Positions 6,422-62,460 of a DNA stretch of 64,000 nt are shown here, piece after piece. The position numbers were made by a program, and so were the translations under genes. Source of the stretch: a virus (Duplodnaviria > Heunggongvirae > Uroviricota > Caudoviricetes > Demerecviridae); IMG/VR virus record IMGVR_UViG_2974579171_000001, positions 1 through 64,000 of that record. One strand, 5' to 3'. Position 1 is the first letter of the stretch, and every line of letters starts with the position of its first letter. The notes beneath the pieces were generated by a model. It did not search any database, was not told the DNA's origin, and saw only the letters and a program-made list of their open reading frames with translations.

Positions 6422-6952
6422 TTATTCTTCACTGTCATATCTCTCCGAGGGATTAAATTCACCAAACAGTTCTTTAACTCCCATAAGGTATAGCTGATGG
6501 GCTTCTTCCGGGGTATCTCGTCTACCAAAAATATGCTGCTTTCCATCACAGTAAGCGTAGGCCATATACCTATTACCTCGTTTTACAACTCCAGTGAATC
6601 CGGTAGAATTAGTAGAACACTTCTTATTCTTTCCATTTTCGGAGTAGGTAGCCTTACGTAAATTATCCCACAAGTTGTTTAAGTTATCCCCGTCTTTGTG
6701 GTCGATAGTTTTATCCCCAGGATCTTCGCCTGTTTTTATAAACCAGATTATTCTATGGGCTAAGTAAGCTGTCCGCTCTCCCTTTATAGTAAACTCTAAC
6801 TGTCTCCCAGTTTTCATTTTGGAGCCCGCTACCCTTCCCTTCCTTGGGCCAGATAACCAAATTAAGTCCCCAGTACTTTCGTCATACTTAAGCTTTTTCA
6901 GGATAAATGCCATAGGAGGCATTGGTTTATGTATCTTCATTGGTTGCTCCAA
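6422..6952 (-). CDS. HNH homing endonuclease (HNH_3 + AP2-like)
   Basis: 176 aa. IDHKDGDNLNNLWDNLR HNH motif. Paralog of the ORF at 19111-19608. Overlaps the 3' end of the upstream 928-aa gene by 26 nt. Confidence 0.8.
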   Translation of the reverse strand: MEQPMKIHKPMPPMAFILKKLKYDESTGDLIWLSGPRKGRVAGSKMKTGRQLEFTIKGERTAYLAHRIIWFIKTGEDPGDKTIDHKDGDNLNNLWDNLRKATYSENGKNKKCSTNSTGFTGVVKRGNRYMAYAYCDGKQHIFGRRDTPEEAHQLYLMGVKELFGEFNPSERYDSEE

Positions 6953-9713
6953 GTTCGGACATTACTTCTTCTGCCATGGCCCTCTCTTCCTCTGTCATGA
7001 ATTTTAGGGGGATTGGCATACACTCGATTTTACAATAGGTTCTGTACCAGTCTACAATATTTTCAGTGTTCATATCCTTACCAATACCCATCATACCAAG
7101 ATACATTCTGGCATATTTTGGGTTAGCACTCTGACCTGTTTTAAGGAAGAAGTCTTTCTTCTTACCTTTCAGAGCTTCTATGAATGGTTTGATAGTGATA
7201 TTTGAACACTTCTTAATATCTTCCCAGAACATCTCGTGCATTTTATGGAAGAATGCCGCTCGATCATTCGGTTTATCCTTGATATACTGTTCAACATGCT
7301 CAACTGTTACATCTTTAATAGACTCAAGATGATAATAGCGAACAAGAAGTAGTTTAGCTTCATACGCATCTGCATGGCGTGGAGCACAATAATCAGGAGT
7401 TGAATACAAAATGGCTTTGATTCGCTCTTCCGTATACTCTTTTCCTGCACCTTCGATAGTTCCCCAGCTTTCACTGAAAATATCAATAGTTGCACCCTGA
7501 TCAAGCAAGTAATAACGTAAAGTACTAGTATAGTTCCTAGACTCCAGCTCTCTACGACGTGCGTATAATTGCTGTGCTAACTCCAGCCAACCTTCATCAA
7601 TGTTGTATTGTTCAGAACCTGCGGAGAATCCACTCGTAGATTTATCAATAAAATAATAAATGTTCTGAGCGCCACGGTCGCGCCTGATTGCTTGGAAACG
7701 CATGTTTGGCGCTTGGTTGCTGGTTCTAGTAATAACGAATACGTTATCAAAGTAGTTGAAGTCAACGCCACTGGTTACGGATGGACTACATAATAAGCAA
7801 TCAATTTGTTGGTCAATTAGCTCATTAGTTGTGTAATCCAGAATACGTCGAATATCTACATCAGACGTAGAATTTGAGTGGATTTCCTTAACTAACGCAC
7901 CCGTATTACGACGCAACGCCATGCCCTTCTCATTCAGTTCATCCGGCCCACAGTCAGATACTAGGATAGATTTCTCACCCATCTCTAGAGAAGTCTGAAG
8001 TGCAACCCAAATACTGGATTCATCCGGGAACTCATAAGCATGAGCTTTTGACAGCATCTTACGGTGATGGTTGTAAAATGCAACCGGTTTATCAAAATCA
8101 ATTAGAGAACCGTAGGCTTCAATCGTCTCAGCACTAATATCACCATCAGATAAGATTACAGTTTTAGCTGTCATGAGGATGTCACGTAGAACTTGAATAC
8201 ATTCGCGACGTTGTTTAACAACGGGGGCGAATAATAGATCATTCATTACAGCGTCACATTCATCAATAAAAATGGTGTCTATTTGACCAATAAAACTCTT
8301 GAACTTATGCAAAGAGTGAATAGTTGTGGACATACGGTCAATAGCGCCACGCTTAAAATTAAGCATATCTACAGACTTATCATATTGTCCTGCACTAAAT
8401 TTCTTAGCATTTGAAGATACCAGCGCTCTAGTATTTGTAACTGCTAAAAAGTTGCCAGGAAGAACACCTGCGTCCAGCCATTTAGTTACTGCCGTAGTTT
8501 TACCAGTACCAAGACTTGCCTTAACAAATGTTATATGGCCTTTTGGGGGCACAATGTTAATCTTCAGGTATGGAACTTCTGGTGGAGAATCCACTTCTAA
8601 TTTCTTGAGTGGAACACCTTTCAGATTTAATGGAATCTCACGTTTAGAATTATTAACAAACGCTTTGAGAGCCTGCTTACGACCGTTATTAAAGTAATCT
8701 TGAATATTACGACTGTTATCTTTAGTTGCAATATATTCAGATAAAGCGGGTTTAATCTCACGTTCTAGCCATGCGAAATCAACACCATCCTCTAATGCTC
8801 TATGGTATAGTTTGGGGATAATACGCAAGTACACCCCATCCTCAGCTTCTTCCAATTCGCTGATGGTTTCTTCTACTTTATCAGAAGCAATCTTTTTGCC
8901 TTTAATTTGGTCAAGTAAAGAATAAAACTCCTCCTTAAACTCCCCTCTAGTTGTTTCATAGTCAACCAGATTATTAGGCAAATTTACCTTCGAACCTTTA
9001 ACATACACCAGACGTGGCTTACTCTCCGCTTTAAACGGATCAACAATACCATCGCTAAATAAAGGGTCGGCAAAATAGTGAAGCTGGACAGATGAATAAT
9101 AAGCTAAGTCGGCAATATCAAAACCGAATTTTTGCTTACTACTATCATTGATAGACGTAAATAAGAACTTTAACTGACCTTGAGTTACCTTGACGTTAGA
9201 TTCTAGCATTAAGTGCATTCGGATACCTGGTTTTAGGCCAGCCGAAGACGATGCATGAGCAATAAACCCTGCATCAAGAGGAAACATGTCCTCACTAATA
9301 CTATTCAACATCTTAATAATGTGGCGGGCCATACCTACAAGATTAAACTTGTCGTACCCACCGGTATCTAGGATACCATCCACGTCCATAGCAATAATAT
9401 TGCTAGGGTTGGATACATTAAAGTTACCTTTCTTACGTCGCACGTTATTTTTAGGTGCAAGACATCGACCTCGTACCGCAACGATATGAGGGTCAGACGT
9501 TAAACGTCTCATAAGTGGTAACATTTCGGCAAGGCTTTGCGGGTCATGCTCTTCTATTACATCAAATTTGAAGGGCATAGAAGCTGGTTTACCTTCTGGA
9601 TGCTCTTTAGAGAATCGCTTGGCAAAGGTATAATCTTCCGCTTTGATTTCTCGCCAAATACCTGTTGCTAAATCACGAGAAAATCCGGCGTGACCTTGAA
9701 GAATAGAAAACAC
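6927..9713 (-). CDS. putative replication origin-binding protein / SF2 helicase
   Basis: 928 aa. Walker A motif ASLGTGKTTAV in the central region. Large early replication protein preceded by a 600-bp noncoding region. Confidence 0.55.
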   Translation of the reverse strand: MFSILQGHAGFSRDLATGIWREIKAEDYTFAKRFSKEHPEGKPASMPFKFDVIEEHDPQSLAEMLPLMRRLTSDPHIVAVRGRCLAPKNNVRRKKGNFNVSNPSNIIAMDVDGILDTGGYDKFNLVGMARHIIKMLNSISEDMFPLDAGFIAHASSSAGLKPGIRMHLMLESNVKVTQGQLKFLFTSINDSSKQKFGFDIADLAYYSSVQLHYFADPLFSDGIVDPFKAESKPRLVYVKGSKVNLPNNLVDYETTRGEFKEEFYSLLDQIKGKKIASDKVEETISELEEAEDGVYLRIIPKLYHRALEDGVDFAWLEREIKPALSEYIATKDNSRNIQDYFNNGRKQALKAFVNNSKREIPLNLKGVPLKKLEVDSPPEVPYLKINIVPPKGHITFVKASLGTGKTTAVTKWLDAGVLPGNFLAVTNTRALVSSNAKKFSAGQYDKSVDMLNFKRGAIDRMSTTIHSLHKFKSFIGQIDTIFIDECDAVMNDLLFAPVVKQRRECIQVLRDILMTAKTVILSDGDISAETIEAYGSLIDFDKPVAFYNHHRKMLSKAHAYEFPDESSIWVALQTSLEMGEKSILVSDCGPDELNEKGMALRRNTGALVKEIHSNSTSDVDIRRILDYTTNELIDQQIDCLLCSPSVTSGVDFNYFDNVFVITRTSNQAPNMRFQAIRRDRGAQNIYYFIDKSTSGFSAGSEQYNIDEGWLELAQQLYARRRELESRNYTSTLRYYLLDQGATIDIFSESWGTIEGAGKEYTEERIKAILYSTPDYCAPRHADAYEAKLLLVRYYHLESIKDVTVEHVEQYIKDKPNDRAAFFHKMHEMFWEDIKKCSNITIKPFIEALKGKKKDFFLKTGQSANPKYARMYLGMMGIGKDMNTENIVDWYRTYCKIECMPIPLKFMTEEERAMAEEVMSELGATNEDT

Positions 9714-10331
9714 AACAATACTCCTGTGTTGGTTAATCGAAAATCTTTTCTTTAGGACTATTCAGAAAGAATAGAACAACTATTACTACTATTTACGTAA
9801 ACATCAATTATCATCAAACAATATGAATAAGTTATCATATCTCAGTGCTGTGCTCTCTTCGCTCATATACAGAATAGAACCTAGGTCATTGGCCGCTAAG
9901 CCGATTCTATTTGTCCTCACTATCCTATTGGTAGGTGACTACTGTACGTGCCGCCATTCGCTGCTCTTTTCGTTCGCACCCCCATATAAAGCTCTGCCTA
10001 TATAACGAGCTAAATATGCACGGTTTGGATTTACCTTTCCGAATTCAGGGTACACAGATCACTTAATTGAAGATTAACTAATGCAATATAAACACTAGTA
10101 ATAGTTAAAACAACCCTTAATGGGGCAGCCTAACTGTTCCGTATCGCGGATTGTAAACAAGAAAAATTAGCAAAATCAATTTTTACTAATGTCTCTCAAT
10201 TCAATATAAATATTATATCAAGATTTTGGGCATCCTGCAAGTAAAATTTTCCGGATGGTGCTATCATTGGTCTTGAGTACGTATAAAACCGAGCCAAAAT
10301 GACTCGGTAATCAGAGTTCAGCTAATAAAAA

Positions 10332-10724
10332 TCATTCATCATTTAGGCCTGGAACATAAATCCCAACACGATTTAATTGTTCTTTAGCTTCTGCGAGAAT
10401 ATCTGGAGTGTACTCCCAAATATCATCTTCCACCTGTAAAAGATGGGGCGAACAACCATCATCCGGCACACGACATATGGCCAAACCACGTGGATGGAAT
10501 ATAGAGAAGTTTAGGGCAACAATTAAACCCATAGCGGACAATTCATTCCAGTCCATCTCCCATTCCCCGGCATATCCAGATAGGAAAACGCCAATGCAGG
10601 GGTCATCTATTTGCTGCTCTGGAAAAGTGAAGGAGGCTTGTCTTACCCCCAACCAACGTTGTAGCAGCTTCTCCGCACGTTTCACCAAACTAGGATCAAT
10701 CTGACGCCAATATACTTGTTCCAT
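10332..10724 (-). CDS. hypothetical protein (paralog pair, member A)
   Basis: 130 aa. Shares ...PCIG...W.E.D.MGL..ALN...F.P...IPGL pattern with the next ORF. Confidence 0.5.
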   Translation of the reverse strand: MEQVYWRQIDPSLVKRAEKLLQRWLGVRQASFTFPEQQIDDPCIGVFLSGYAGEWEMDWNELSAMGLIVALNFSIFHPRGLAICRVPDDGCSPHLLQVEDDIWEYTPDILAEAKEQLNRVGIYVPGLNDE

Positions 10725-53369: not shown

Positions 53370-53651
53370 ATGTTAACTGAAATTCTCATTGGATTGCTAG
53401 TGCTTATGACACTAGTAGCTATAGGTGGGATTATTGGTATTGTAAGCATGCGAAAAAATATAGAGAGTATGCTTACTACTAATAGCGGACTTCACTGCCG
53501 CCTAATAGAACAAGAACAAGATATTGAACTAGCACAGAGACGCTCGGATATTCTAAAAGAAAAACTAAACAATATTGAAGCAATAGCTGGGAATACAAAA
53601 TTACCTAATAAAGTAATGCGTGCACAGATAATTACGGAGATTAAAAAATGA
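53370..53651 (+). CDS. hypothetical membrane-anchored coiled-coil protein
   Basis: 93 aa. Transmembrane segment ILIGLLVLMTLVAIGGIIGIV. Confidence 0.45.
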   Translation: MLTEILIGLLVLMTLVAIGGIIGIVSMRKNIESMLTTNSGLHCRLIEQEQDIELAQRRSDILKEKLNNIEAIAGNTKLPNKVMRAQIITEIKK

Positions 53652-53893
53652 TGATGTTTATTCTAGCGTTTTATCTAATTGTGGTTGGTGTACTGGTTAC
53701 TAAGTACCACACATGGACGCCAAAGAATGTAGCTAAGGTAGCATTGTTTATTATTCCAGTTCCACTTATTATCATTTCTATGTTACTGGTAATGTTAGTT
53801 GGTAAAGTAACAAAAACCGATATTAAACGTATTGCTGATGAATTGCAACAGTCTTGTGATATGGTAGAGGATATTCTTAAAGATGAAGCTTAA
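53648..53893 (+). CDS. hypothetical membrane protein
   Basis: 81 aa with two transmembrane segments. Confidence 0.45.
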   Translation: MMMFILAFYLIVVGVLVTKYHTWTPKNVAKVALFIIPVPLIIISMLLVMLVGKVTKTDIKRIADELQQSCDMVEDILKDEA

Positions 53894-54209
53894 TTTTAAT
53901 GAATTAAATACCTTACATGAGATACTACAGTTTGTGAATAATAATATTAGTATTCCAGATGATACACTAGAAGTTCTCAGGATAATTGAGAAAAAGGTAG
54001 GAATTGAAATTGAGGACTCTTGGAAACCACTTTCTGTATTAACACCACTTAATATGAAAGTGATAGTTAAAAATATTGATACTGGTGAAGAGTGTGAAAT
54101 GATTCGTAAAGAACTAGCTGATAGCTATTCACCAAAGTCTGTAGTAATGTACCATGATGATACTGCTAAAACTCTACAGACAGCTAATTACGTATGGCGT
54201 CTCCCATGA
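53883..54209 (+). CDS. hypothetical protein
   Basis: 108-aa ORF. Confidence 0.45.
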   Translation: MKLNFNELNTLHEILQFVNNNISIPDDTLEVLRIIEKKVGIEIEDSWKPLSVLTPLNMKVIVKNIDTGEECEMIRKELADSYSPKSVVMYHDDTAKTLQTANYVWRLP

Positions 54210-54308
54210 TTGATTTAGTACCAATTACTGCTGGGCTAATAGCACTATTAGTGCTTGCAGTTTTTATTATTGTGGAGCAGGCCAAAGTAATAAGGAGACT
54301 TAAAAACA

Positions 54309-54509
54309 ATGATAAAACGTCTTGTTTATCAGGCACCAAAGATTGTAACTGAGTATTTTGTATTACTGCCTCAGATTGTACTTCTAACAGCATTATTTAA
54401 TATACTTTTTCGACATCTAGGAATAACGGAAAATATCTTCTATACTTCTGAACTACTTCCTTTTATGTACGAAGGCATCATCGTGGCAATTAACGGAGTT
54501 CGTAAATGA
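54309..54509 (+). CDS. small membrane protein
   Basis: 66-aa ORF. A competing 48-aa hydrophobic ORF at 54206-54352 overlaps in another frame. Confidence 0.35.
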   Translation: MIKRLVYQAPKIVTEYFVLLPQIVLLTALFNILFRHLGITENIFYTSELLPFMYEGIIVAINGVRK

Positions 54510-54967
54510 CAGCACTACAACAACTACAGAATTACTGGTTTGATAACCAATTTAACGATCTCTTTATCCAGTTATTTGTCGAAACGAACGGACGCTTCAA
54601 CTACCGATTCTTTAATAAGTTTCACGAAACAAAATTCTCACATACAGAAATTAATGCAGCGATCCAAGACCTAGCTGGTTCTAAAGTAGTCCAATATCGT
54701 GAAGTAGACTTTACACCAGATTGTTTTGGGTTTGAATTGTTTAAGAAAGCATATAAATTTGGTAAGTTTGAGGATGCTCGTCAATGGGTTCATGATTTCT
54801 GGTATAACACCGATATTGTTCCTAGTCGTATACTGATTCTTAACTGGATTGCTAAACAACATCCGCCTAAAGCTCAATCGTCCTTCTTACCAACTGACAC
54901 AGGAAACCTCTACCATGACAGAAAAGAAAAATCCATTGCTGGAGCAGATGAAGGAATGGGAGAGTAA
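54506..54967 (+). CDS. hypothetical protein
   Basis: 153-aa ORF. Confidence 0.5.
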   Translation: MTALQQLQNYWFDNQFNDLFIQLFVETNGRFNYRFFNKFHETKFSHTEINAAIQDLAGSKVVQYREVDFTPDCFGFELFKKAYKFGKFEDARQWVHDFWYNTDIVPSRILILNWIAKQHPPKAQSSFLPTDTGNLYHDRKEKSIAGADEGMGE

Positions 54968-55286
54968 TATTGAATCTGGTCTAATAGACGGTGAAGATAT
55001 TATTAACTCTATGTTAGAAGTAACAGTAGATAATATTAATCCTATTTTGGCCGGAGAAACCTCAGATCTTATAGGACTTTCTAGTACTTTCGATTCTTTG
55101 GCTAAATTAGCGTTAGATGATGAAGAGATAACCAAAGAAGATCTCGCTACAGCTATGAATATGGCTATTAATGCTTACATCGGTAAACGTACTGATGAAC
55201 TTGGTAAACAGATCAATAAGCGTGATGCTACGCTAGGTCTTATGGAAACGGCCACTATGTTAAGAAGTGGTAAACAACTTCATTAA
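54948..55286 (+). CDS. hypothetical acidic protein (start uncertain)
   Basis: ATG 54948 follows TGGAG. The frame is open from 54849. Confidence 0.4.
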   Translation: MKEWESNIESGLIDGEDIINSMLEVTVDNINPILAGETSDLIGLSSTFDSLAKLALDDEEITKEDLATAMNMAINAYIGKRTDELGKQINKRDATLGLMETATMLRSGKQLH

Positions 55287-55579: not shown

Positions 55580-55764
55580 TGGAAACTCTTTTTCTTTTAA
55601 TGCTCGTAGGTTCTCTGTTACTAATACTAGCACTTCTACTAATCTGCAACATTCTTAATAATAAGAATTTAGAGTTAAAGTGTGAGAACCAAATCCTTAA
55701 CCGTGAACTTAAACAATATAATCTAGCAGCCCATAAACTGTTAGACAAACTGGAGAATAAATAA
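55579..55764 (+). CDS. hypothetical membrane-anchored coiled-coil protein
   Basis: 61 aa. LLMLVGSLLLILALLLI transmembrane segment. Confidence 0.45.
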   Translation: METLFLLMLVGSLLLILALLLICNILNNKNLELKCENQILNRELKQYNLAAHKLLDKLENK

Positions 55765-56384
55765 TGACTTTTAATACGCAACAATCTATTCAAGTAGTAC
55801 CAGACCATGAACTGAACACATGGGATTATAGCTTTAAAGATTTAACTGCTACTATACAATTCAAATCTATGAAGCTAACATTTGCACACACTGACCTTAG
55901 AGCCTGTAAAGATCTTGAAGGTAAGCTCGAAGATGCTCGTAAGATTTTTGGCAAGGCTCGCATCCCGGCTGATAACCTGATTAATGCACTGATCGATGCA
56001 GGGTACAAACTCGTGAAGACCGAGGTGAACCGCCCTAGTACTCCAGTAACTATTAGAGATCCGTGGCAGTCAGGGACAATTTCAATGCTGAATAACTCCG
56101 ATAAAAGATTAATGTCGGATATGCACAATGTTCCTTGTGGGGGTGTAGTAAGTAGTACGCAGTCATATAAGTTTGCGGAAGATTACGGCCCTTCTGTACA
56201 GCTGAAACATACTCAAGAAGCTTTTGAATCTGATATGCGAAGCGCAGCACCTGCAGATGCTGGAGTTTCTAGGAGTTCTGTTTGTACTATTCATTTTAAT
56301 AATCCTGGTAAACATGGAAGTTTAGAGGATGCTATTATGGAGGCGTTGGGAGCTGCTATTAATGAAGATAAAAGAGGTAGTTAA
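55764..56384 (+). CDS. hypothetical protein
   Basis: 206-aa ORF. Confidence 0.55.
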   Translation: MTFNTQQSIQVVPDHELNTWDYSFKDLTATIQFKSMKLTFAHTDLRACKDLEGKLEDARKIFGKARIPADNLINALIDAGYKLVKTEVNRPSTPVTIRDPWQSGTISMLNNSDKRLMSDMHNVPCGGVVSSTQSYKFAEDYGPSVQLKHTQEAFESDMRSAAPADAGVSRSSVCTIHFNNPGKHGSLEDAIMEALGAAINEDKRGS

Positions 56385-57109
56385 TGAGTATTAAAAAGAA
56401 TTTAGCAGAGATTATTAAATTAGCTAGAGCTTGTAATGGGAAATGTGTTTCTCAGCTTAATGAGTTAGAGGCACATGCAGTAGCATTTTGTGCAGAGTTT
56501 TATCCTGCATATATTAATGCTAGTGGGCAACCCAAATATAATAAAGATGCAGAAGAAGTTACATTAGCACCTTCTTATATTAGTTTACGTCGTCTGATTC
56601 AAACTGTTGATCCTACTATTAAAGGATTTTCAGCAGATTCATTCCACGTCTTTGCAGATAAAGAACTCCCGTATTTTAAAGAAGGAAATGCAAAGTCATG
56701 TTTAGAATGTTATCCAAATATTCTGATGATTCCTCAAAAGCAATGTAAATACGATCATCTCCCTAGACTTACAAAGAAAATAGAACCACCTTACTCTTCT
56801 CTATCTGAGTTAAAGCTAGGAATCGTATCTATACTTGCGCAGGTTCATCTAAGTATAGTTGATGACTCAACAACATCTAACCCTATTCTAGATGCTGCTC
56901 ACTTTGAAATTTTACGTGATCCTGAACAAGCTAGAAAAGTTGCAAAGTCTGTTAAGTTTGATATATCAACAATTCTTGACACTAAACAAGAAATCAGACC
57001 TAGAGGAAGTGTAGATTATTCTGCGCTAAATTCCGAGTCATCTTATTTAGCAACATTCCTTTTCATGGCGTCAAAAGGGGTTATTCTGAAGGTTAATAAA
57101 GATGGATGA
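56384..57109 (+). CDS. hypothetical protein
   Basis: 241-aa ORF. Confidence 0.55.
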   Translation: MSIKKNLAEIIKLARACNGKCVSQLNELEAHAVAFCAEFYPAYINASGQPKYNKDAEEVTLAPSYISLRRLIQTVDPTIKGFSADSFHVFADKELPYFKEGNAKSCLECYPNILMIPQKQCKYDHLPRLTKKIEPPYSSLSELKLGIVSILAQVHLSIVDDSTTSNPILDAAHFEILRDPEQARKVAKSVKFDISTILDTKQEIRPRGSVDYSALNSESSYLATFLFMASKGVILKVNKDG

Positions 57110-57830
57110 TTTACGTACTGAAATTAATAAAAAGCTACGAGAGGAAGCCCGGAGGTTTCCTCTTAAAAACTTTTTGAAGTCAAATGGCTCTACTAATATA
57201 ACGAAGATTAGGCAACTTCACCCTGACTTCCAGCAAGAGGCCTTAAACCTTATCTTTATTAGGAAAGCTTTAAAAGTCCAGAAAGAAGAATATGGGTATG
57301 AAAAAGTTAATTATAAGACAGCCAATCAGTTAGTAGAGATATGGTGCTATAAGCATAAAGGATACTTTATGCAAACTGCTAGATCCCACCTAGATGGGCA
57401 CGGCTGTTTACAGTGTGCTAGAGAAAGCAACCTTAATACACCTGTCGAGAAGCCAGAAGTAGATGAAGATGTTCAATTTCCCACATATCTCTATATCTTC
57501 TCTAATAAAGATCAGTCTAGGAAAAAATTAAAGACAAAGATTGGAGTCTCTAGAGAGCCACATCAAAGGTTTAAGAATCTAGAGTATGATAAATTGCGTG
57601 TGCCGGGTTTCGAAGATATGGAAGTATTTGGTATCTACCAATATAAGAAAGGATCGAAAGAACTCGCTTACAGAATAGAACACCAAGCACATAAATTTTT
57701 CGAAAATAAATTTGCTAACCATTATAAATTCGATGGAGCAAAAGAGATATTCAACATTAAAGCTGTAGAGGCAGAAGAGTATCTATTAAGTCAAGGTTGT
57801 ATAAAAATTTACCCAACTCCAAACTCATGA
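57102..57830 (+). CDS. T5orf172/GIY-YIG-like domain protein with N-terminal Cys/His cluster
   Basis: 242 aa. TYLYIFSNKDQSRKKLKTKIGVSREPHQRF resembles the motif in 37874-38374. CYKHKGY...HLDGHGCLQC. Confidence 0.45.
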   Translation: MDDLRTEINKKLREEARRFPLKNFLKSNGSTNITKIRQLHPDFQQEALNLIFIRKALKVQKEEYGYEKVNYKTANQLVEIWCYKHKGYFMQTARSHLDGHGCLQCARESNLNTPVEKPEVDEDVQFPTYLYIFSNKDQSRKKLKTKIGVSREPHQRFKNLEYDKLRVPGFEDMEVFGIYQYKKGSKELAYRIEHQAHKFFENKFANHYKFDGAKEIFNIKAVEAEEYLLSQGCIKIYPTPNS

Positions 57831-57857
57831 CGAAAATTTAAAAATAACGAAATCTGC

Positions 57858-57887
57858 TTGACATTCGTGAGAATAATGTGTTATAAT
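57858..57887 (+). promoter_or_regulatory. consensus sigma70 promoter (TTGACA, 17-18 bp, TATAAT) firing into the noncoding repeat block
   Basis: ctgcTTGACAttcgtgagaataatgtgtTATAATaatc. No ORF of 60 aa or more for about 1.8 kb downstream. Confidence 0.5.
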
Positions 57888-58240
57888 AATCTCATAGATT
57901 AAAAACATCAACTTGTTTTTACCTCTAGGCCGTAGATTTACATCATTCCTCGTAGGAAAACACTTGATGACGGTTCTGCTCGCAGGTTCTCGTCAATTGT
58001 TCTTCCACACCGAGACTTAGGAGGATGTATCAAATCGCACGCGCCTAGAGGGGCTAACTCTCATGAAATGGGGGTATATTTACTTTTAAATAACTAAAAA
58101 ATATTTAAAGGCAATATCTGTGTTCAAGATGATACACCGGTTGCCGCTCATCTGCTAGGATGGCACAACACTTTCCTCTAGACTCCTAAGTTTTTAGGAA
58201 TAGTTGAATACTAACTCTAGGGTTTACACTAAACTTTAAA

Positions 58241-58976
58241 TCGGATTTGCACATGTTCTAGGGCAGTTTTTCATCTACTATAAATATCCTAGGCCGGTTT
58301 CCCTATACAGGGCGGTTATGGGGAGGGCGGTTATTTCTAGGAGACATTTTTTGAAAACACATTTCCAGAAATTACTGTCGGATTTGCACATTGTGTTTCT
58401 AGAAATTTATGGTCGGATTTGCACAATTGCATAAGTTTTCATGGACATATAATCTCCTGAAAATGGCAGCATTATTTCGGGCCGAAGGCCCATGATTGCC
58501 TGAGTTTTTAGAGCCACAGAAATTTTCACTTGTCAAGCTATTTTGCCCCATTTTGCTAATAAAATTTTACTTTATCTCGCCCCAAGCCCAATTAACCCAA
58601 ATTATCTCAACTATTCCCCAAAATCCCCGCAAATCGGGTGCCCCACACCAAACATGCGCCCCTCTAGCTTCTCCCCTAATTTTCTCTCACTCTCTCAACT
58701 TCTCCCCAAACCCACACAATCACACACCCTCTCATCGAAGTCACAAAAATCTTGTCGGTTTCGCACATCTTAATCCTAGAAAAACCGTGTCGGATTTGCA
58801 CATACTCCACAGGATTCGAACGCAGTTCGAGATTGCTGGAGTTTTTGGGAAAATTCATTGTCGGATTTGCACACTATAAAAATTTTTCGGGTCGGATTTG
58901 CACACTACCAAAAATTGTCGGATTTGCACATACACGCCCGCACGTAACACCCGTGGAGCAATGTCGGATTTGCACA
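58241..58976 (+). repeat. 9 direct copies of 14-mer GTCGGATTTGCACA (one variant GTCGGTTTCGCACA), irregular spacing
   Basis: Copies at 58241, 58377, 58412, 58754 (variant), 58789, 58860, 58891, 58917 and 58963, all in the same orientation. Confidence 0.8.
58560..58760 (+). repeat. strand-asymmetric C-rich/G-poor low-complexity tract (complement has G-runs)
   Basis: ccccaagcccaattaacccaaa...ttccccaaaatccccgcaaa...ctccccaaacccacacaatcacacaccctc. Confidence 0.6.
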
Positions 58977-58979
58977 AAA

Positions 58980-59001
58980 GCGCAGGGCAATTGCCCTGCG
59001 C
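58980..59001. repeat. 22-bp perfect palindrome GCGCAGGGCAATTGCCCTGCGC
   Basis: Exact reverse-complement symmetry. Confidence 0.85.
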
Positions 59002-59009
59002 TAAATACG

Positions 59010-59230
59010 AATGATAATAAGAATCATTCTCATTTAAAAAGCAGAATGAGAATGATAATAATTCGCATTTAGAAAGTGAAACGAGAATCAATCTCATTTA
59101 GAAAGTGAAACGATTCTCATTTAAAAAGTGGAATGAAAATTATTCAGGAAGTGAAACGATTCTCATTTAGATAGTGGAATGCAAATGATAATGATTCTCA
59201 TTTAAGAATGGAAGTGAGAAACACTGTTAT
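59010..59230 (+). repeat. degenerate tandem repeats (about 5 units of GATTCTCATTTAnAAAGTGnAAyG)
   Basis: Repeated tctcatttaaaaag / tctcatttagaaagtgaaacg / tctcatttagatagtggaatg units. Confidence 0.6.
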
Positions 59231-59345
59231 TTAAGTTATCCACAGACTTATCAACAGCACGATTTGACTTGACAAAATTCTAGCCGTTTTGAAGCGTTAT
59301 CAACAGACTTATCCACAGCTTATCCTACTGGATAAATATACAGTA
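59180..59345. repeat. left arm of large imperfect inverted repeat carrying DnaA boxes
   Basis: About 80 percent identical to the reverse complement of 62325-62460 (for example tatttaagttatccaca and acagacttatccacagcttatcctactg). Confidence 0.7.
59236..59317 (+). promoter_or_regulatory. DnaA-box cluster (2 TTATCCACA plus 2 TTATCAACA)
   Basis: TTATCCACA at 59236 and 59309. TTATCAACA at 59247 and 59297. Confidence 0.6.
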
Positions 59346-59711
59346 TTCCTACGCAGTGAATAATTCTAATATACCGCTAAAACGCCCTCAAACGCATTCT
59401 AACGCGTTTAATTTTGGTGGGGATACTAAAACAAGGGCAAAATTGGAGGAGGCTTGAAAATTAGTTAGCGCGCTAACGATCACACAAGGCGACACGTAAC
59501 ACCCGAACCATTAGCAGGCTAACCATCGCGGGCGCGGTTAAATGAGAATGATTATCATTTGAGAATTGGGGGCACTTCCGGATAGTTGCGCCCCGTGATT
59601 ATTATAGTAGTGGGCAATCGTTACGCTTTGCCCACTCCCGCCACTCATCTTGATGTCTAGACTTGCGACGGCATACTAAAAACCGTTTATACCAGTGATT
59701 AAACCATCGTT

Positions 59712-60062: not shown

Positions 60063-60158
60063 AGCTCCCAGATAACGCCAACGATAATCATTAGCTGACT
60101 AATGATTATCAGAATAAAACCAATTGAAGGCAGGACGCCCCAAAAACGAAAAGCCGTT

Positions 60159-62324: not shown

Positions 62325-62460
62325 AATTTATACAGTAGGATAACCTGTGGATAAGTCTGTGTAAAAGCCCTCATATCGCCGCCTATCGTGTCAAATTATT
62401 TTGTGCTGTGGATAACGTTGTGGATAACTTAAATGATAGTGGTTCTCACTTAGGCCGATA
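62325..62460. repeat. right arm of large imperfect inverted repeat carrying DnaA boxes
   Basis: Reverse complement reads catttaagttatccacaacgttatccacagcac...acagacttatccacaggttatcctactg, homologous to 59180-59345. Confidence 0.7.
62346..62427 (-). promoter_or_regulatory. DnaA-box cluster (3 TGTGGATAA on the plus strand)
   Basis: TGTGGATAA at 62346, 62407 and 62419. Confidence 0.6.

What the first reader, a model, noticed from the sequence alone, without database searches (positions are those of the whole stretch)
57858..59230. F4. Consensus promoter transcribing a 1.8-kb ORF-free repeat block: 9 copies of GTCGGATTTGCACA, a C-rich skewed tract, a 22-bp perfect palindrome and tandem 27-bp repeats
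After the last early gene a near-perfect sigma70 promoter (TTGACA, 17-18 bp, TATAAT; 57858-57887) points into DNA with no ORF of 60 aa or more. The ORF-track hits at 58496-59097 are low-complexity artefacts. The block contains nine same-orientation copies of the 14-mer GTCGGATTTGCACA at irregular spacing of 24 to about 330 bp. That pattern fits an array of binding sites for a sequence-specific protein rather than a CRISPR array. It also contains a 200-bp strongly C-rich/G-poor tract (58560-58760) whose complement has G-runs capable of G-quadruplex formation. A perfect 22-bp palindrome sits at 58980-59001. A GGGCCGAAGGCCC hairpin is at about 58478. Two copies of CACGTAACACCCG are at 58941 and 59493. 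These are plausible components of an injection-stop/partition-like or regulatory locus, or of a long noncoding RNA.
Basis: seen in the sequence. Interest (0 to 1): 0.6.

Follow-up and report, generated by a model that had tools for sequence, protein, structure and literature searches.

The report
T5-type injection-stop region and early sRNA
This block is the already catalogued, still unexplained "injection stop signal" region at the inner end of the terminal repeat of a T5-like Salmonella phage, and its strong promoter most likely makes a short, conserved, apparently undescribed structured RNA rather than one long transcript across the repeats.

Summary
The window is Salmonella phage SE11 (Tequintavirus), assembled with its terminal repeat (TR) collapsed. 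Region 57831-59711 is the ortholog, in reverse orientation, of phage T5 "Repeat Region 3", the injection stop signal (iss) region.

Every listed feature is real and is already annotated in T5:
- The 14-mer is "direct repeat D" (DRD).
- The palindrome is palindrome J. It carries the nick consensus CCCTGCGC of the 7.9% major nick.
- The tandem repeats are DRC/DRE.
- The C-rich tract is the last ~250 bp of the TR. By homology the TR ends at 58510|58511.

The function remains unknown in the literature.

New observations:
1. The promoter drives a ~195-nt structured RNA (57894-~58088). This RNA is conserved in architecture, not in sequence, from Tequintavirus to Vibrio T5-like phages. It is not annotated in the records I read and has no Rfam match.
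2. DRD copies flank the TR end at offsets conserved to the base.
3. The DRC/DRE repeats at the first-step stop point score as operator-grade Fur boxes, and such sites are nearly confined to the TR.
4. No canonical G-quadruplex motif exists. The tract looks like a Rho-loading (rut-like) site.

Which protein binds DRD is unresolved. Candidates are A2, the small terminase (SciB) and the UL9-like origin-binding helicase.

The parts
57858..57887 (+). Consensus sigma70 early promoter (TTGACA, 18 nt, TGnTATAAT) immediately after the last + strand gene (57102-57830).
   Evidence: 12/12 match. A TTGACx-type -35 with a TATAAT or TATCAT -10 was found in 22 of 23 unique T5-like sequences, and also in Sugarland and Vibrio D149. 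AAS21 has a weaker match, TTGACG...TAAGAT. Not annotated in the three T5 records.
57894..58088 (+). Predicted ~195-nt structured early RNA. It has a 5' hairpin (57900-57921), a long imperfect hairpin (57922-58050) and a 3' hairpin (58057-58075) followed by a U-rich run. The start and end are inferred.
   Evidence: MFE -64.6 kcal/mol, z -5.95. Seven sequence versions fold the same way, with z from -2.8 to -7.5, and the + strand is always more stable than its complement. Compensatory changes occur in 16 of 56 and 3 of 72 predicted pairs. Terminator-like site. No Rfam or tRNA match.
58121..58200 (.). Most conserved block of the unique-side DNA (92-99% column identity). Role unknown.
   Evidence: The 141-nt segment 58100-58240 that contains it folds with z -3.1.
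58240..58253 (+). DRD copy (T5 DRD-9 equivalent), ATCGGATTTGCACA, 271 bp outside the TR end.
58309..58338 (+). Direct repeat AGGGCGGTTAT x2. The segment 58321-58340 is 100% conserved in the panel. Copies are also present in Sugarland and AAS21.
   Evidence: (D13).
58377..58390 (+). DRD copy (T5 DRD-8 equivalent), exact, 134 bp outside the TR end.
58412..58425 (+). DRD copy (T5 DRD-7 equivalent), exact, 99 bp outside the TR end.
58478..58490 (.). GC hairpin GGGCCGAAGGCCC, 20 bp outside the TR end. Conserved in T5, Spc35, EscoHU1, Sepoy and, with one base different, AAS21.
58510..58511 (.). Inner boundary of the long terminal repeat (GAGTTTTTA | GAGCCACAG). The TR runs from 58511 to about 67815. 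Placed by homology only, because the SE11 assembly has the TR collapsed.
   Evidence: The boundary is identical to the base in T5 (10139), Spc35, EscoHU1 and Sepoy (PhageTerm). Mapping onto the window. Left end inferred.
58560..58760 (+). C-rich, G-poor tract, the last ~250 bp of the TR (holds the T5 DRA-2/3 equivalents). As + strand RNA it is unstructured, which makes it rut-like.
   Evidence: Composition and genome-wide skew rank, and no G4 motif. As RNA the 250 nt 58511-58760 fold at -21 kcal/mol, z -0.9. An equivalent tract exists in Sugarland, AAS21 and Vibrio D149.
58754..58767 (+). DRD copy (T5 DRD-6 equivalent), 2 mismatches, 243 bp inside the TR.
58789..58802 (+). DRD copy (T5 DRD-5 equivalent), exact.
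58860..58873 (+). DRD copy (T5 DRD-4 equivalent), exact.
58891..58904 (+). DRD copy (T5 DRD-3 equivalent), exact.
58917..58930 (+). DRD copy (T5 DRD-2 equivalent), exact.
58963..58976 (+). DRD copy (T5 DRD-1 equivalent), exact, 2 bp before the palindrome.
58979..59002 (.). Perfect 24-bp palindrome, the equivalent of T5 palindrome J. Each arm carries the T5 major-nick consensus CCCTGCGC, so this is the site of the 7.9% nick at the first-step-transfer boundary.
   Evidence: I14. T5 nick features and consensus. These are the only two occurrences of the consensus in the SE11 genome. The Sugarland PhageTerm end falls exactly here.
59004..59230 (.). Tandem and inverted AT-rich repeats (T5 DRC/DRE and palindromes E-I) that score as Fur boxes. 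Best sites: 59013-59031 (21.9 bits), 59048-59066, 59181-59205.
   Evidence: PWM scan. Six sites of at least 13 bits in 58980-59600, against 0.02 in shuffles. Calibration on E. coli Fur operators. The T5 equivalents at 9574 and 9615 sit at the calculated shear point 9618.
59236..59317 (+). Two pairs of DnaA boxes, each pair separated by 3 bp: TTATCCACA-GAC-TTATCAACA and TTATCAACA-GAC-TTATCCACA. This is the T5 IRD'-spacer-IRC'.
   Evidence: (D9). Described by Davison.
59538..59562 (.). Further Fur-box-like palindrome (18.2 bits).
62346..62427 (-). Inverted partner of the DnaA-box pairs (T5 IRC-spacer-IRD in Repeat Region 2). It lies outside the finding but belongs to the same system.
   Evidence: Davison.
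56114..56127 (+). Outlying DRD copy (T5 DRD-10 equivalent) inside the CDS 55764-56384.

Best explanation
**Shown.** The block is the SE11 ortholog of the phage T5 untranslated region at the inner end of the ~9.3-kb terminal repeat ("Repeat Region 3", injection stop signal). It is read here on the opposite strand to T5.

**Components.** It is a mosaic of cis-acting sites, not one transcript.
1. The consensus promoter is its own small transcription unit. It makes a ~195-nt RNA whose three-hairpin design, not its sequence, is conserved through the family. The unit ends at a hairpin plus U-run before the repeats.
2. Any read-through then meets a GC hairpin and a 200-nt C-rich, G-poor, unstructured tract. 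I infer that this tract loads Rho and keeps early transcription out of the repeat.
3. The 14-mers (DRD) are an oriented array of binding sites for one sequence-specific protein. I infer that this protein is phage-encoded.

**Order of DNA entry.** Entry runs from high to low window coordinates. The order is:
- the pre-early genes
- the DnaA-box pairs
- the Fur-box-like repeats
- the nick-consensus palindrome
- DRD 1-6
- the TR end
- DRD 7-9

**Proposed mechanism (inferred).**
- Transfer pauses at the nicked palindrome. T5 ejection is reported to pause at nick sites.
- Host proteins already present in the cell (DnaA, possibly Fur) load on the boxes that have just entered.
- The DRD array is the first DNA to emerge when transfer resumes. 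The pre-early DNA-binding protein A2, with A1, captures it and restarts or ratchets second-step transfer.
- Because the same array brackets the TR end, a second role in forming genome ends is likely.
For: **Identity**
- The sequence is 100% identical to SE11 MK972715. The homologous stretch lies in the annotated left TR/FST DNA of Spc35.
- It aligns with T5 9238-10528 at 85% identity.
- T5 records annotate DRD 1-12, palindromes, nick 1, the TR end and 'injection stop signal' there.
- A2, A1 and dmp lie to the right of the block.

**Conservation**
- The non-coding block 58120-59460 is mostly 85-100% conserved, more than the flanking genes. Davison made the same point.

**DRD**
- The motif is a sharp 14 nt with random flanks.
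- The orientation is uniform, and the offsets from the TR end are identical in five phages.
- The same array is present in Sugarlandvirus and in Pantoea phage AAS21.
- A half-conserved version is present in a Vibrio T5-like phage.

**Nick and pause**
- The nick consensus lies in the palindrome.
- Ejection pauses correspond to nick positions (review PMC2771126).
- In T5, DRD-1 starts 4 bp after nick 1, and DRD-11/12 lie 368 bp beyond nick 4. Both are on the later-entering side.

**sRNA**
-.

**rut-like tract**
-.

**A2**
- PHROGs files A2 as a DNA-binding protein.
- A2 was purified as a DNA-binding dimer, and A1 and A2 are required for second-step transfer (Davison).
Against: - No experiment links any protein to DRD, and Davison's model assigns DRD no role.
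- Two of the four unique major nicks in T5 (18.3% and 32.6%) have no DRD within 1 kb.
- DRD copies bracket the TR end in T5-type, Sugarland and AAS21 phages. That pattern suits an end-forming or origin function at least as well as a restart ratchet.
- A2, the small terminase and the origin-binding helicase are all conserved enough to explain an unchanged motif. Comparison therefore cannot pick the binder.
- The 3' hairpin plus U-run of the RNA is weak in SE11 and T5, though strong in other versions. Some read-through is therefore possible.
- The RNA ends and Rho dependence are inferred, not measured.
Confidence: 0.6

Rival explanations
1. The DRD array is a set of iterons for the phage's own initiator, so the TR/unique junction is a replication origin. 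In this reading the DRD pair at 64.7% of the genome is a second origin. The initiator would be the 928-aa prim-pol plus UL9-like helicase annotated as 'replication origin binding protein' (window 6927-9713, - strand). The DnaA boxes and the strong promoter would be the usual origin accessories.
For: - The architecture is that of an iteron origin: oriented repeats, DnaA boxes and an adjacent strong promoter.
- The phage encodes a UL9-family helicase. It matches Pfam Herpes_ori_bp. The best structural matches are HSV-1 UL9, E 6e-15, against about 1e-9 for other SF2 helicases.
- The invariant DxD...H motifs in the N-terminal domain suggest a primase-polymerase. This is my reading.
- HSV UL9 Box 1 is GTTCGCAC. 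The DRD variant ATTCGCAC matches 7 of 8 positions. The part of DRD that stays conserved in Vibrio phages is exactly TT(C/T)GCACA.
- The initiator is 74-79% identical in phages that keep the DRD motif unchanged, and 38-46% identical where the 5' half of the motif changes.
- Extra DRD copies lie far from the ends, at 12.1 kb and 79.0 kb in T5. From memory, this recalls P4 ori/crr.
Against: - The UL9-type origin-recognition module was not found. Sequence similarity to UL9 covers only RecA1.
- The Box 1 resemblance is 6-7 of 8 and was found post hoc.
- Davison cites EM work that places T5 origins near the genome centre, and notes that the replication genes are not expressed during the first step.
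- There is no strongly AT-rich unwinding element beside the array. The best candidate is 88% AT over 40 nt at 58078-58117.
Confidence: 0.2
2. The DRD array is the recognition site of the small terminase (the T5 SciB homolog). It marks the place where concatemers are cut to make the inner TR end and where packaging starts. The nearby nick would be a by-product of terminase action.
For: - DRD copies sit on both sides of the TR end at offsets conserved to the base: -271, -134, -99 | +244...+453. A DRD-free zone around the cut holds the most conserved sequence of the block (58461-58560, 94-98%).
- The boundary motif TTTTTAGAGCCACAG survives in Sugarland and, as TTTTTAGAGCCACAA, in AAS21.
- T5 annotates the gene just upstream of the large terminase as SciB. 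The name stands for single-chain interruptions (from memory). PHROGs files the SE11 homolog as a small terminase.
- In T5, DRD-1 starts 4 bp from nick 1, and DRD-11/12 lie 368 bp from nick 4.
- From memory, lambda cosB has repeated small-terminase sites beside the cut.
Against: - There is no DRD at the other (outer) TR end.
- The copies at 12.1 kb and 79 kb have no obvious packaging role.
- Nicks 2 and 3 have no DRD.
- The direction and start of T5 packaging are inferred, not tested here.
Confidence: 0.2
3. DRD sites are low-affinity DnaA boxes. The array would extend the strong TTATCCACA pairs into a long DnaA filament, in line with Davison's model of a DnaA-mediated injection stop.
For: - The 3' nine bases, ATTTGCACA, match the relaxed DnaA box TTWTNCACA at 8 of 9 positions, in the same orientation as the strong boxes.
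- Some copies are perfect boxes (TTTTGCACA).
- The part conserved in Vibrio phages is this half.
Against: - The GTCGG half is invariant in all enterobacterial T5-like phages, which DnaA does not explain.
- The 'N' position is G in 77 of 77 copies, and a quarter of the copies have C at the conserved T4 position.
- DRD lies on the side that has not yet entered the cell at the pause.
Confidence: 0.08
4. One reading: the promoter transcribes the whole 1.8-kb block as a long non-coding RNA, and the complementary strand forms G-quadruplexes.
For: - The promoter points into the block.
- The 3' hairpin plus U-run is not a strong terminator in SE11 or T5.
- There are 12 G-runs on the complement.
Against: - A conserved hairpin plus U-run follows, then a GC hairpin, then a rut-like tract.
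- Only the first ~200 nt show conserved RNA structure with covariation.
- No canonical G4 motif exists.
- The block is conserved as DNA motifs that occur on both strands: palindromes and inverted DnaA boxes.
Confidence: 0.07

Closest known systems
Phage T5 Repeat Region 3 / injection stop signal (named from memory: Heusterspreute 1987, Wang 2005. Read here: T5 GenBank AY587007, AY543070, AY692264 and Davison, bioRxiv 10.1101/866236)
   Same: - Same position, at the inner end of the long terminal repeat next to the pre-early genes.
- Same order of elements: DnaA-box pairs, DRC/DRE repeats, palindrome J with the nick, DRD 1-6, skewed tract, TR end, GC hairpin, DRD 7-9.
- 85% nucleotide identity over 1.3 kb.
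   Different: - SE11 has a perfect 24-bp palindrome with the nick consensus on both strands, whereas the T5 palindrome is imperfect.
- The ~300 bp holding the promoter and the RNA is not alignable with T5 by BLAST, but has the same design.
- The SE11 record has one collapsed TR copy, so the region sits mid-record.
Iteron-type replication origins. From memory: P1 oriR, pSC101, R6K gamma ori, P4 ori/crr. HSV oriS with UL9 boxes was read in PMC12543377.
   Same: - Oriented short repeats at irregular spacing, beside DnaA boxes and a strong promoter.
- The phage encodes a UL9-family helicase.
- The DRD core resembles UL9 Box 1.
   Different: - No initiator gene lies next to the array.
- The UL9-type DNA-recognition subdomain was not detected.
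- Davison cites published EM mapping that puts T5 origins near mid-genome.
Terminase recognition regions such as lambda cos (cosQ-cosN-cosB with R sites). From memory.
   Same: Repeated protein-binding sites beside a fixed cut site that becomes a genome end.
   Different: - T5-type ends are blunt-mapped boundaries of a ~10-kb direct repeat, not cohesive ends.
- The sites lie on both sides of the cut, and also far from it.
Fur boxes (iron boxes, consensus GATAATGATAATCATTATC)
   Same: - The DRC/DRE units contain AATGAGAATCATT-type cores.
- They score 14.6-21.9 bits with a PWM built from 11 published boxes. That is the same range as the real E. coli operators of fepD-entS and fepB-entC.
   Different: - The sites are not at promoters. 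They lie at the two ends of the first-step DNA.
- They are absent from the equivalent repeats of a Vibrio T5-like phage.
- Binding is untested.
Rho-utilisation (rut) sites (features from memory)
   Same: More than 200 nt that is C-rich, G-poor and unstructured as RNA, downstream of a strong promoter.
   Different: It lies at the very end of the terminal repeat, so its strand bias could equally serve a DNA-level role at the genome terminus.

Membership tests
T5-type injection stop signal / Repeat Region 3 | Untranslated block at the inner end of the long terminal repeat, on the far side of the pre-early genes dmp, A1 and A2. | tested here: met
   A2 lies at 64017, A1 at 64767 and dmp at 66971. 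The TR boundary is placed by homology at 58510|58511.
T5-type injection stop signal / Repeat Region 3 | A series of about nine DRD repeats in one orientation. | tested here: met
   Nine copies, with the same offsets as T5 DRD 1-9.
T5-type injection stop signal / Repeat Region 3 | IRD'-spacer-IRC' with DnaA boxes in pairs separated by 3 bp, and an inverted partner in Repeat Region 2. | tested here: met
   Pairs at 59236/59248 and 59297/59309. Inverted copies at 62346-62427.
T5-type injection stop signal / Repeat Region 3 | Major nick site (about 7.9% of the genome) beside DRD-1. | tested here: met
   The consensus CCCTGCGC lies in both arms of 58979-59002. The nick itself was not observable here.
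T5-type injection stop signal / Repeat Region 3 | Acts in cis to halt DNA transfer until A1 and A2 are made. | not testable with these tools
   Needs blender or qPCR first-step-transfer assays.
Iteron replication origin | Repeated initiator-binding sites plus DnaA boxes. | tested here: inconclusive
   The repeats and boxes are present. The binder is unknown.
Iteron replication origin | An initiator with a demonstrable DNA-recognition domain for the repeat (here the UL9-type SAP/RVKNL module). | tested here: not met
   [not shown]
Iteron replication origin | AT-rich unwinding element next to the repeats. | tested here: inconclusive
   The best candidate is 88% AT over 40 nt at 58078-58117. There is no 13-mer-type repeat.
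Fur-regulated operator | A 19-bp site matching the iron-box profile at the level of known operators. | tested here: met
   Scores are 14.6-21.9 bits. Control operators score 14.5-19.0, with no false hits in 26 kb of E. coli DNA.
Fur-regulated operator | Overlaps a promoter and is bound by Fur-Fe2+. | not testable with these tools
   I saw no strong promoter at the sites, only 9-of-12 consensus matches in the AT-rich repeats. Binding needs FURTA or EMSA.
CRISPR array | Regularly spaced direct repeats of 24-48 nt with unique spacers of similar length. | tested here: not met
   The motif is 14 nt and the start-to-start spacing is 26-377 nt.
G-quadruplex-forming tract | Four G-runs of at least 3 with loops of 1-7 nt (or up to 12 nt). 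| tested here: not met
   No match on the complement of 58511-58800, nor anywhere in the genome.
Bacterial/phage small RNA gene | Own promoter, conserved secondary structure with covariation, terminator, and no conserved ORF. | tested here: met
   A 17-codon ORF in SE11 is frameshifted in Spc35 (alignment). The transcript itself has not been observed.
Known RNA families (Rfam 15) | Match to a covariance model. | tested here: not met
   The only hit is a chance-level one to rliI inside the AT-rich repeats (24 bits against a 45-bit threshold). Six relatives give nothing.

The most novel reading that the evidence does not exclude
The AT-rich repeats that sit exactly at the first-step stop point are genuine Fur operators. 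Host Fur, together with DnaA on the neighbouring boxes, would be the long-sought pre-existing host factor that holds T5-type DNA at the injection stop. Two-step transfer would then respond to the cell's iron status. That would make sense for phages that enter through the iron-regulated receptors FhuA and FepA.
Probability: 0.15. Interest if true: 0.8.

Novelty: already known. Interest (0 to 1): 0.4.

Why it matters
Why T5 DNA stops after 8% of the genome has entered, and how it restarts, has been open since the 1960s. [quoted passage not shown]

The block itself is not new. Three things found here turn the question into concrete experiments:
1. A conserved early structured RNA is encoded next to the block.
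2. The DRD array has a fixed geometry around the repeat end and beside the nick sites.
3. Operator-grade Fur boxes are confined to the first-step DNA.

The experiments that follow are binding assays with four named proteins, fur and dnaA host mutants, and RNA end mapping.

There is also a practical point. Many T5-like genome records, including this one, have the terminal repeat collapsed, or have spurious small ORFs called across this region.

Tried and rejected
- **Coding potential.** The five mechanical ORFs of 60-127 aa are not kept open across relatives.
- **tRNA, tmRNA and Rfam families.** Nothing was found.
- **CRISPR array.** The repeat length and spacing do not fit.
- **G-quadruplex.** No canonical motif exists.
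- **Picking the DRD binder by co-variation.** A2, the small terminase and the origin-binding helicase all diverge in step with the phages, so the comparison does not discriminate.
- **UL9-like DNA recognition by the phage helicase.**
  - The full-length model matches UL9 best.
  - Profile-to-sequence similarity stops at RecA1.
- **Fur boxes as a universal feature.** They are absent from the Vibrio phage D149 equivalent. The site near the SE11 left terminus (67777) has no counterpart in T5.
- **Literature.**
  - Searches for the 14-mer, the promoter sequence, a Tequintavirus sRNA, or Fur boxes in T5 found nothing relevant.
  - The Davison 2015 review was not held. I did not try to retrieve the 1987 and 2005 primary papers. 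An earlier mention in any of these cannot be excluded.
Full report
**What the window is**

The finding region is 100% identical to Salmonella phage SE11 (MK972715, Tequintavirus, 107,763 bp), and window coordinates equal record coordinates. In Spc35 the homologous stretch lies in the annotated "left TR; first-step-transfer DNA". A2 (64017), the A1 "DNA transfer protein" (64767) and dmp (66971) lie to the right. The window is therefore read in the opposite orientation to T5. The SE11 assembly carries a single, collapsed copy of the terminal repeat.

**Check of the observation**

All listed features exist.
- The promoter is a 12/12 consensus with an extended -10.
- The 14-mer has 7 exact and 2 degenerate copies, all on the + strand. 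Across the window there are 11 matches with up to 2 mismatches, against 0.36 expected.
- The palindrome is a perfect 24-mer, 58979-59002.
- The C-rich tract (C 38%, G 7.5%) is the most skewed stretch of the whole genome.
- TRF finds periods of 23, 35 and 46 at 59009-59186, and a 31-nt period with a 27-nt consensus at 58857-58934.

There are two corrections.
- ORFs of 60-127 aa do occur, but stops or frameshifts break them in most relatives, and all are broken in T5, despite 85-95% DNA identity.
- No canonical G-quadruplex motif exists.

**It is the T5 injection-stop region**

BLAST aligns window 58123-59437 with T5 (AY587007) 10528-9238 at 85% identity. The T5 record annotates the following there:
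- direct repeat D copies 1-9
- palindromes C-J
- direct repeats A, B and C
- inverted repeats C' and D'
- "major single-stranded nick 1, 7.9%"
- the end of the left terminal repeat at 10139

The other two T5 records label the stretch "injection stop signal".

Davison's comparative paper describes the same elements, including "nine DRD repeats" and paired DnaA boxes. It calculates the first-step shear point at about 9618. It assigns no role to DRD. A 2026 preprint still calls the stop signal simply a repeat- and palindrome-rich non-coding region. The block is therefore known, and its mechanism is not.

**Map of the block in window coordinates**

The T5 repeat end maps to 58510|58511. The junction sequence GAGTTTTTA|GAGCCACAG is identical to the base in T5, Spc35, EscoHU1 and Sepoy, and the Sepoy ends come from PhageTerm. 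From left to right the block contains:
- the promoter, 57858-57887
- the structured RNA, 57894-~58088
- a 92-99% conserved block, 58121-58200
- DRD-9, a GGGCGGTTAT pair, DRD-8 and DRD-7
- the GC hairpin, 58478-58490
- the TR end
- the C-rich tract
- DRD-6 to DRD-1, 58754-58976
- the palindrome
- the Fur-box-like repeats, 59004-59230
- two DnaA-box pairs, 59236-59317
- a further Fur-like site, 59538-59562

The inverted partner of the DnaA-box pairs lies at 62346-62427. The whole stretch 58120-59460 is mostly 85-100% conserved between Tequintavirus and Epseptimavirus, more than the flanking genes.

**The 14-mer (DRD)**

- Across nine phages, 77 copies give a sharp 14-nt logo, RTCGGAT(T/A)(T/C)GCACA, with uninformative flanks.
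- Offsets from the TR end are identical in T5, Spc35, SE11, EscoHU1 and Sepoy: -271, -134, -99 | +244 to +454.
- Sugarland, from another genus, has nine copies. Pantoea phage AAS21 has eight copies of the same motif. In both, copies lie on both sides of the conserved boundary motif.
- A Vibrio T5-like phage has six copies that keep only TT(C/T)GCACAT.
- Outlying copies exist at 56114 and at 98599/98614 in SE11. They correspond to T5 DRD-10 and DRD-11/12.
- In T5, DRD-1 starts 4 bp after nick 1, and DRD-11/12 lie 368 bp beyond nick 4. Nicks 2 and 3 have no DRD nearby.

**The palindrome**

T5 major nicks 1-3 share CCCTGCGC, and nick 4 has CCCGCGC. Both arms of the SE11 palindrome carry this octamer, and these are its only two occurrences in the genome. 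The PhageTerm "repeat end" of Sugarland falls exactly at this site. A review reports that T5 ejection in vitro pauses at positions that correspond to the nicks (PMC2771126).

**The promoter makes a discrete structured RNA**

- A TTGACx-type -35 with a TATAAT or TATCAT -10, followed by a conserved start region (AATCTCATAGATT in most versions), occurs in 22 of 23 unique T5-like sequences. It also occurs in Sugarland and in Vibrio D149. AAS21 has a weaker -10, TAAGAT.
- The next ~180-215 nt exist in at least six versions that are unrelated or only partly related in sequence. All fold into the same design: a small 5' hairpin, a ~130-nt imperfect hairpin closed by a GC-rich stem, and a 3' hairpin followed by a U-rich run.
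- The SE11 version has z = -5.95. Seven versions give z from -2.8 to -7.5, and the transcribed strand is always more stable than its complement.
- Within two sequence groups, 16 of 56 and 3 of 72 predicted pairs show compensatory double changes.
- There is no Rfam or tRNA match.
- None of the three T5 records annotates the promoter or the RNA. Wang's promoter list starts at 13.7 kb.
- The literature searches found nothing.
- Its function is unknown. The variable interior and the conserved shape suggest that the long duplex itself matters.

**The C-rich tract**

As + strand RNA the tract is unstructured. The 250 nt 58511-58760 fold at -21 kcal/mol, z -0.9. The tract is C-rich and G-poor, which are the hallmarks of a Rho-loading site (general knowledge). 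I infer that it insulates the repeat from early transcription. It is also the terminal 250 bp of the genome's right end, so a DNA-level role at the terminus is equally open.

**Fur-box-like repeats**

I built a PWM from the 11 iron boxes listed in PMC10665472.
- In SE11, all 8 sites of at least 14 bits lie in the terminal repeat, which is 8.6% of the genome. Four of them lie in 58980-59600.
- That segment holds six sites of at least 13 bits, against 0.02 in shuffles.
- In T5, 8 of 9 sites of at least 12 bits and all 4 sites of at least 18 bits lie in the left repeat. Those at 9574 and 9615 sit at the calculated shear point.
- On 26 kb of the E. coli enterobactin cluster, the same threshold hits only the fepD-entS and fepB-entC operators, at 14.5-19.0 bits.
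- Sites at the homologous place occur in all eight enterobacterial T5-like phages examined besides SE11. They do not occur in the Vibrio phage, which has different tandem repeats there.
- I found no paper that links Fur to T5.
- This is a prediction of binding, not a demonstration.

**Who binds DRD?**

- A2 is filed as a DNA-binding protein and the SciB homolog as a small terminase.
- The phage also has a 928-aa protein with a UL9-like helicase core. Its N-terminal domain has primase-polymerase-like invariant residues, on my reading.
- HSV UL9 recognises GTTCGCAC, which resembles the DRD core at 6-7 of 8 positions. However, the modelled C-terminal domain of the phage protein shows no UL9-like or other known fold.
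- Identity to relatives does not discriminate among the three candidates.

**Verdict**

The finding is real and correctly sensed as an injection-stop-type cis-acting locus. It is an already catalogued region of T5-like phages. Its value lies in three leads that I did not find reported: the sRNA, the Fur boxes and the DRD geometry. These give direct tests of an old question.

Noticed in passing
L011:34599-34627 (SE11 98599-98627): Two 1-mismatch DRD copies lie 15 bp apart inside the recombination-exonuclease gene. They match T5 DRD-11/12 base for base. In T5 those copies lie 368 bp beyond major nick 4 (64.7%).
   Followed up: partly
window 60077-60116; L011:3577-3601 (SE11 67577-67601); L011:3777-3795 (SE11 67777-67795): Further operator-grade Fur-like sites lie inside the terminal repeat. 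One is between two small pre-early ORFs. One is in the 3' end of dmp and is conserved in T5 at 228-252. One is 20-38 bp from the inferred left genome terminus and is not conserved in T5.
   Followed up: partly
window 58155-58399: Seven CTAG tetramers, mostly as YTCTAGR, occur in 245 bp. That is about 6 times the genome density. They may form another binding-site family on the unique side of the repeat end.
   Followed up: no
window 58121-58200: This block is 92-99% conserved and lies between the RNA terminator and DRD-9. It is more conserved than any nearby gene. The 141-nt segment 58100-58240 folds with a modest z of -3.1. Its role is unknown.
   Followed up: partly
L008:2857 (Klebsiella phage Sugarland): The PhageTerm-predicted repeat end coincides with the nick consensus (…CACATAA|GCGCAGG…), not with the T5-type boundary motif, which is present 350 bp away at L008 2500. 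Either the repeat ends differently in this genus, or the nick misled the prediction.
   Followed up: partly
window 57102-57830: The gene just upstream of the promoter is a T5orf172-domain endonuclease. Other T5-like phages carry different genes at this spot, including a homing endonuclease in DT57C and Sepoy. The spot therefore looks like an insertion hot spot that leaves the promoter and RNA intact.
   Followed up: partly
[not shown]
   Followed up: yes
L048:7019-7190 (Vibrio phage D149): Where the enterobacterial phages have Fur-like repeats, this Vibrio T5-like phage has eight copies of ATATTATTGTA(C/T) in a 16/32-nt rhythm. The binder is unknown.
   Followed up: no
window 53406-55286 and L011:4287-6824 (SE11 record annotation): Several product names in the SE11 record look unreliable. 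Examples are 'tail sheath monomer' for an 81-aa protein, 'capsid and scaffold protein' for a 112-aa early protein, and 'tail fiber protein' for a 38-aa ORF. Other records call many tiny ORFs across the non-coding block, for example in AAS21 and Sepoy.
   Followed up: no
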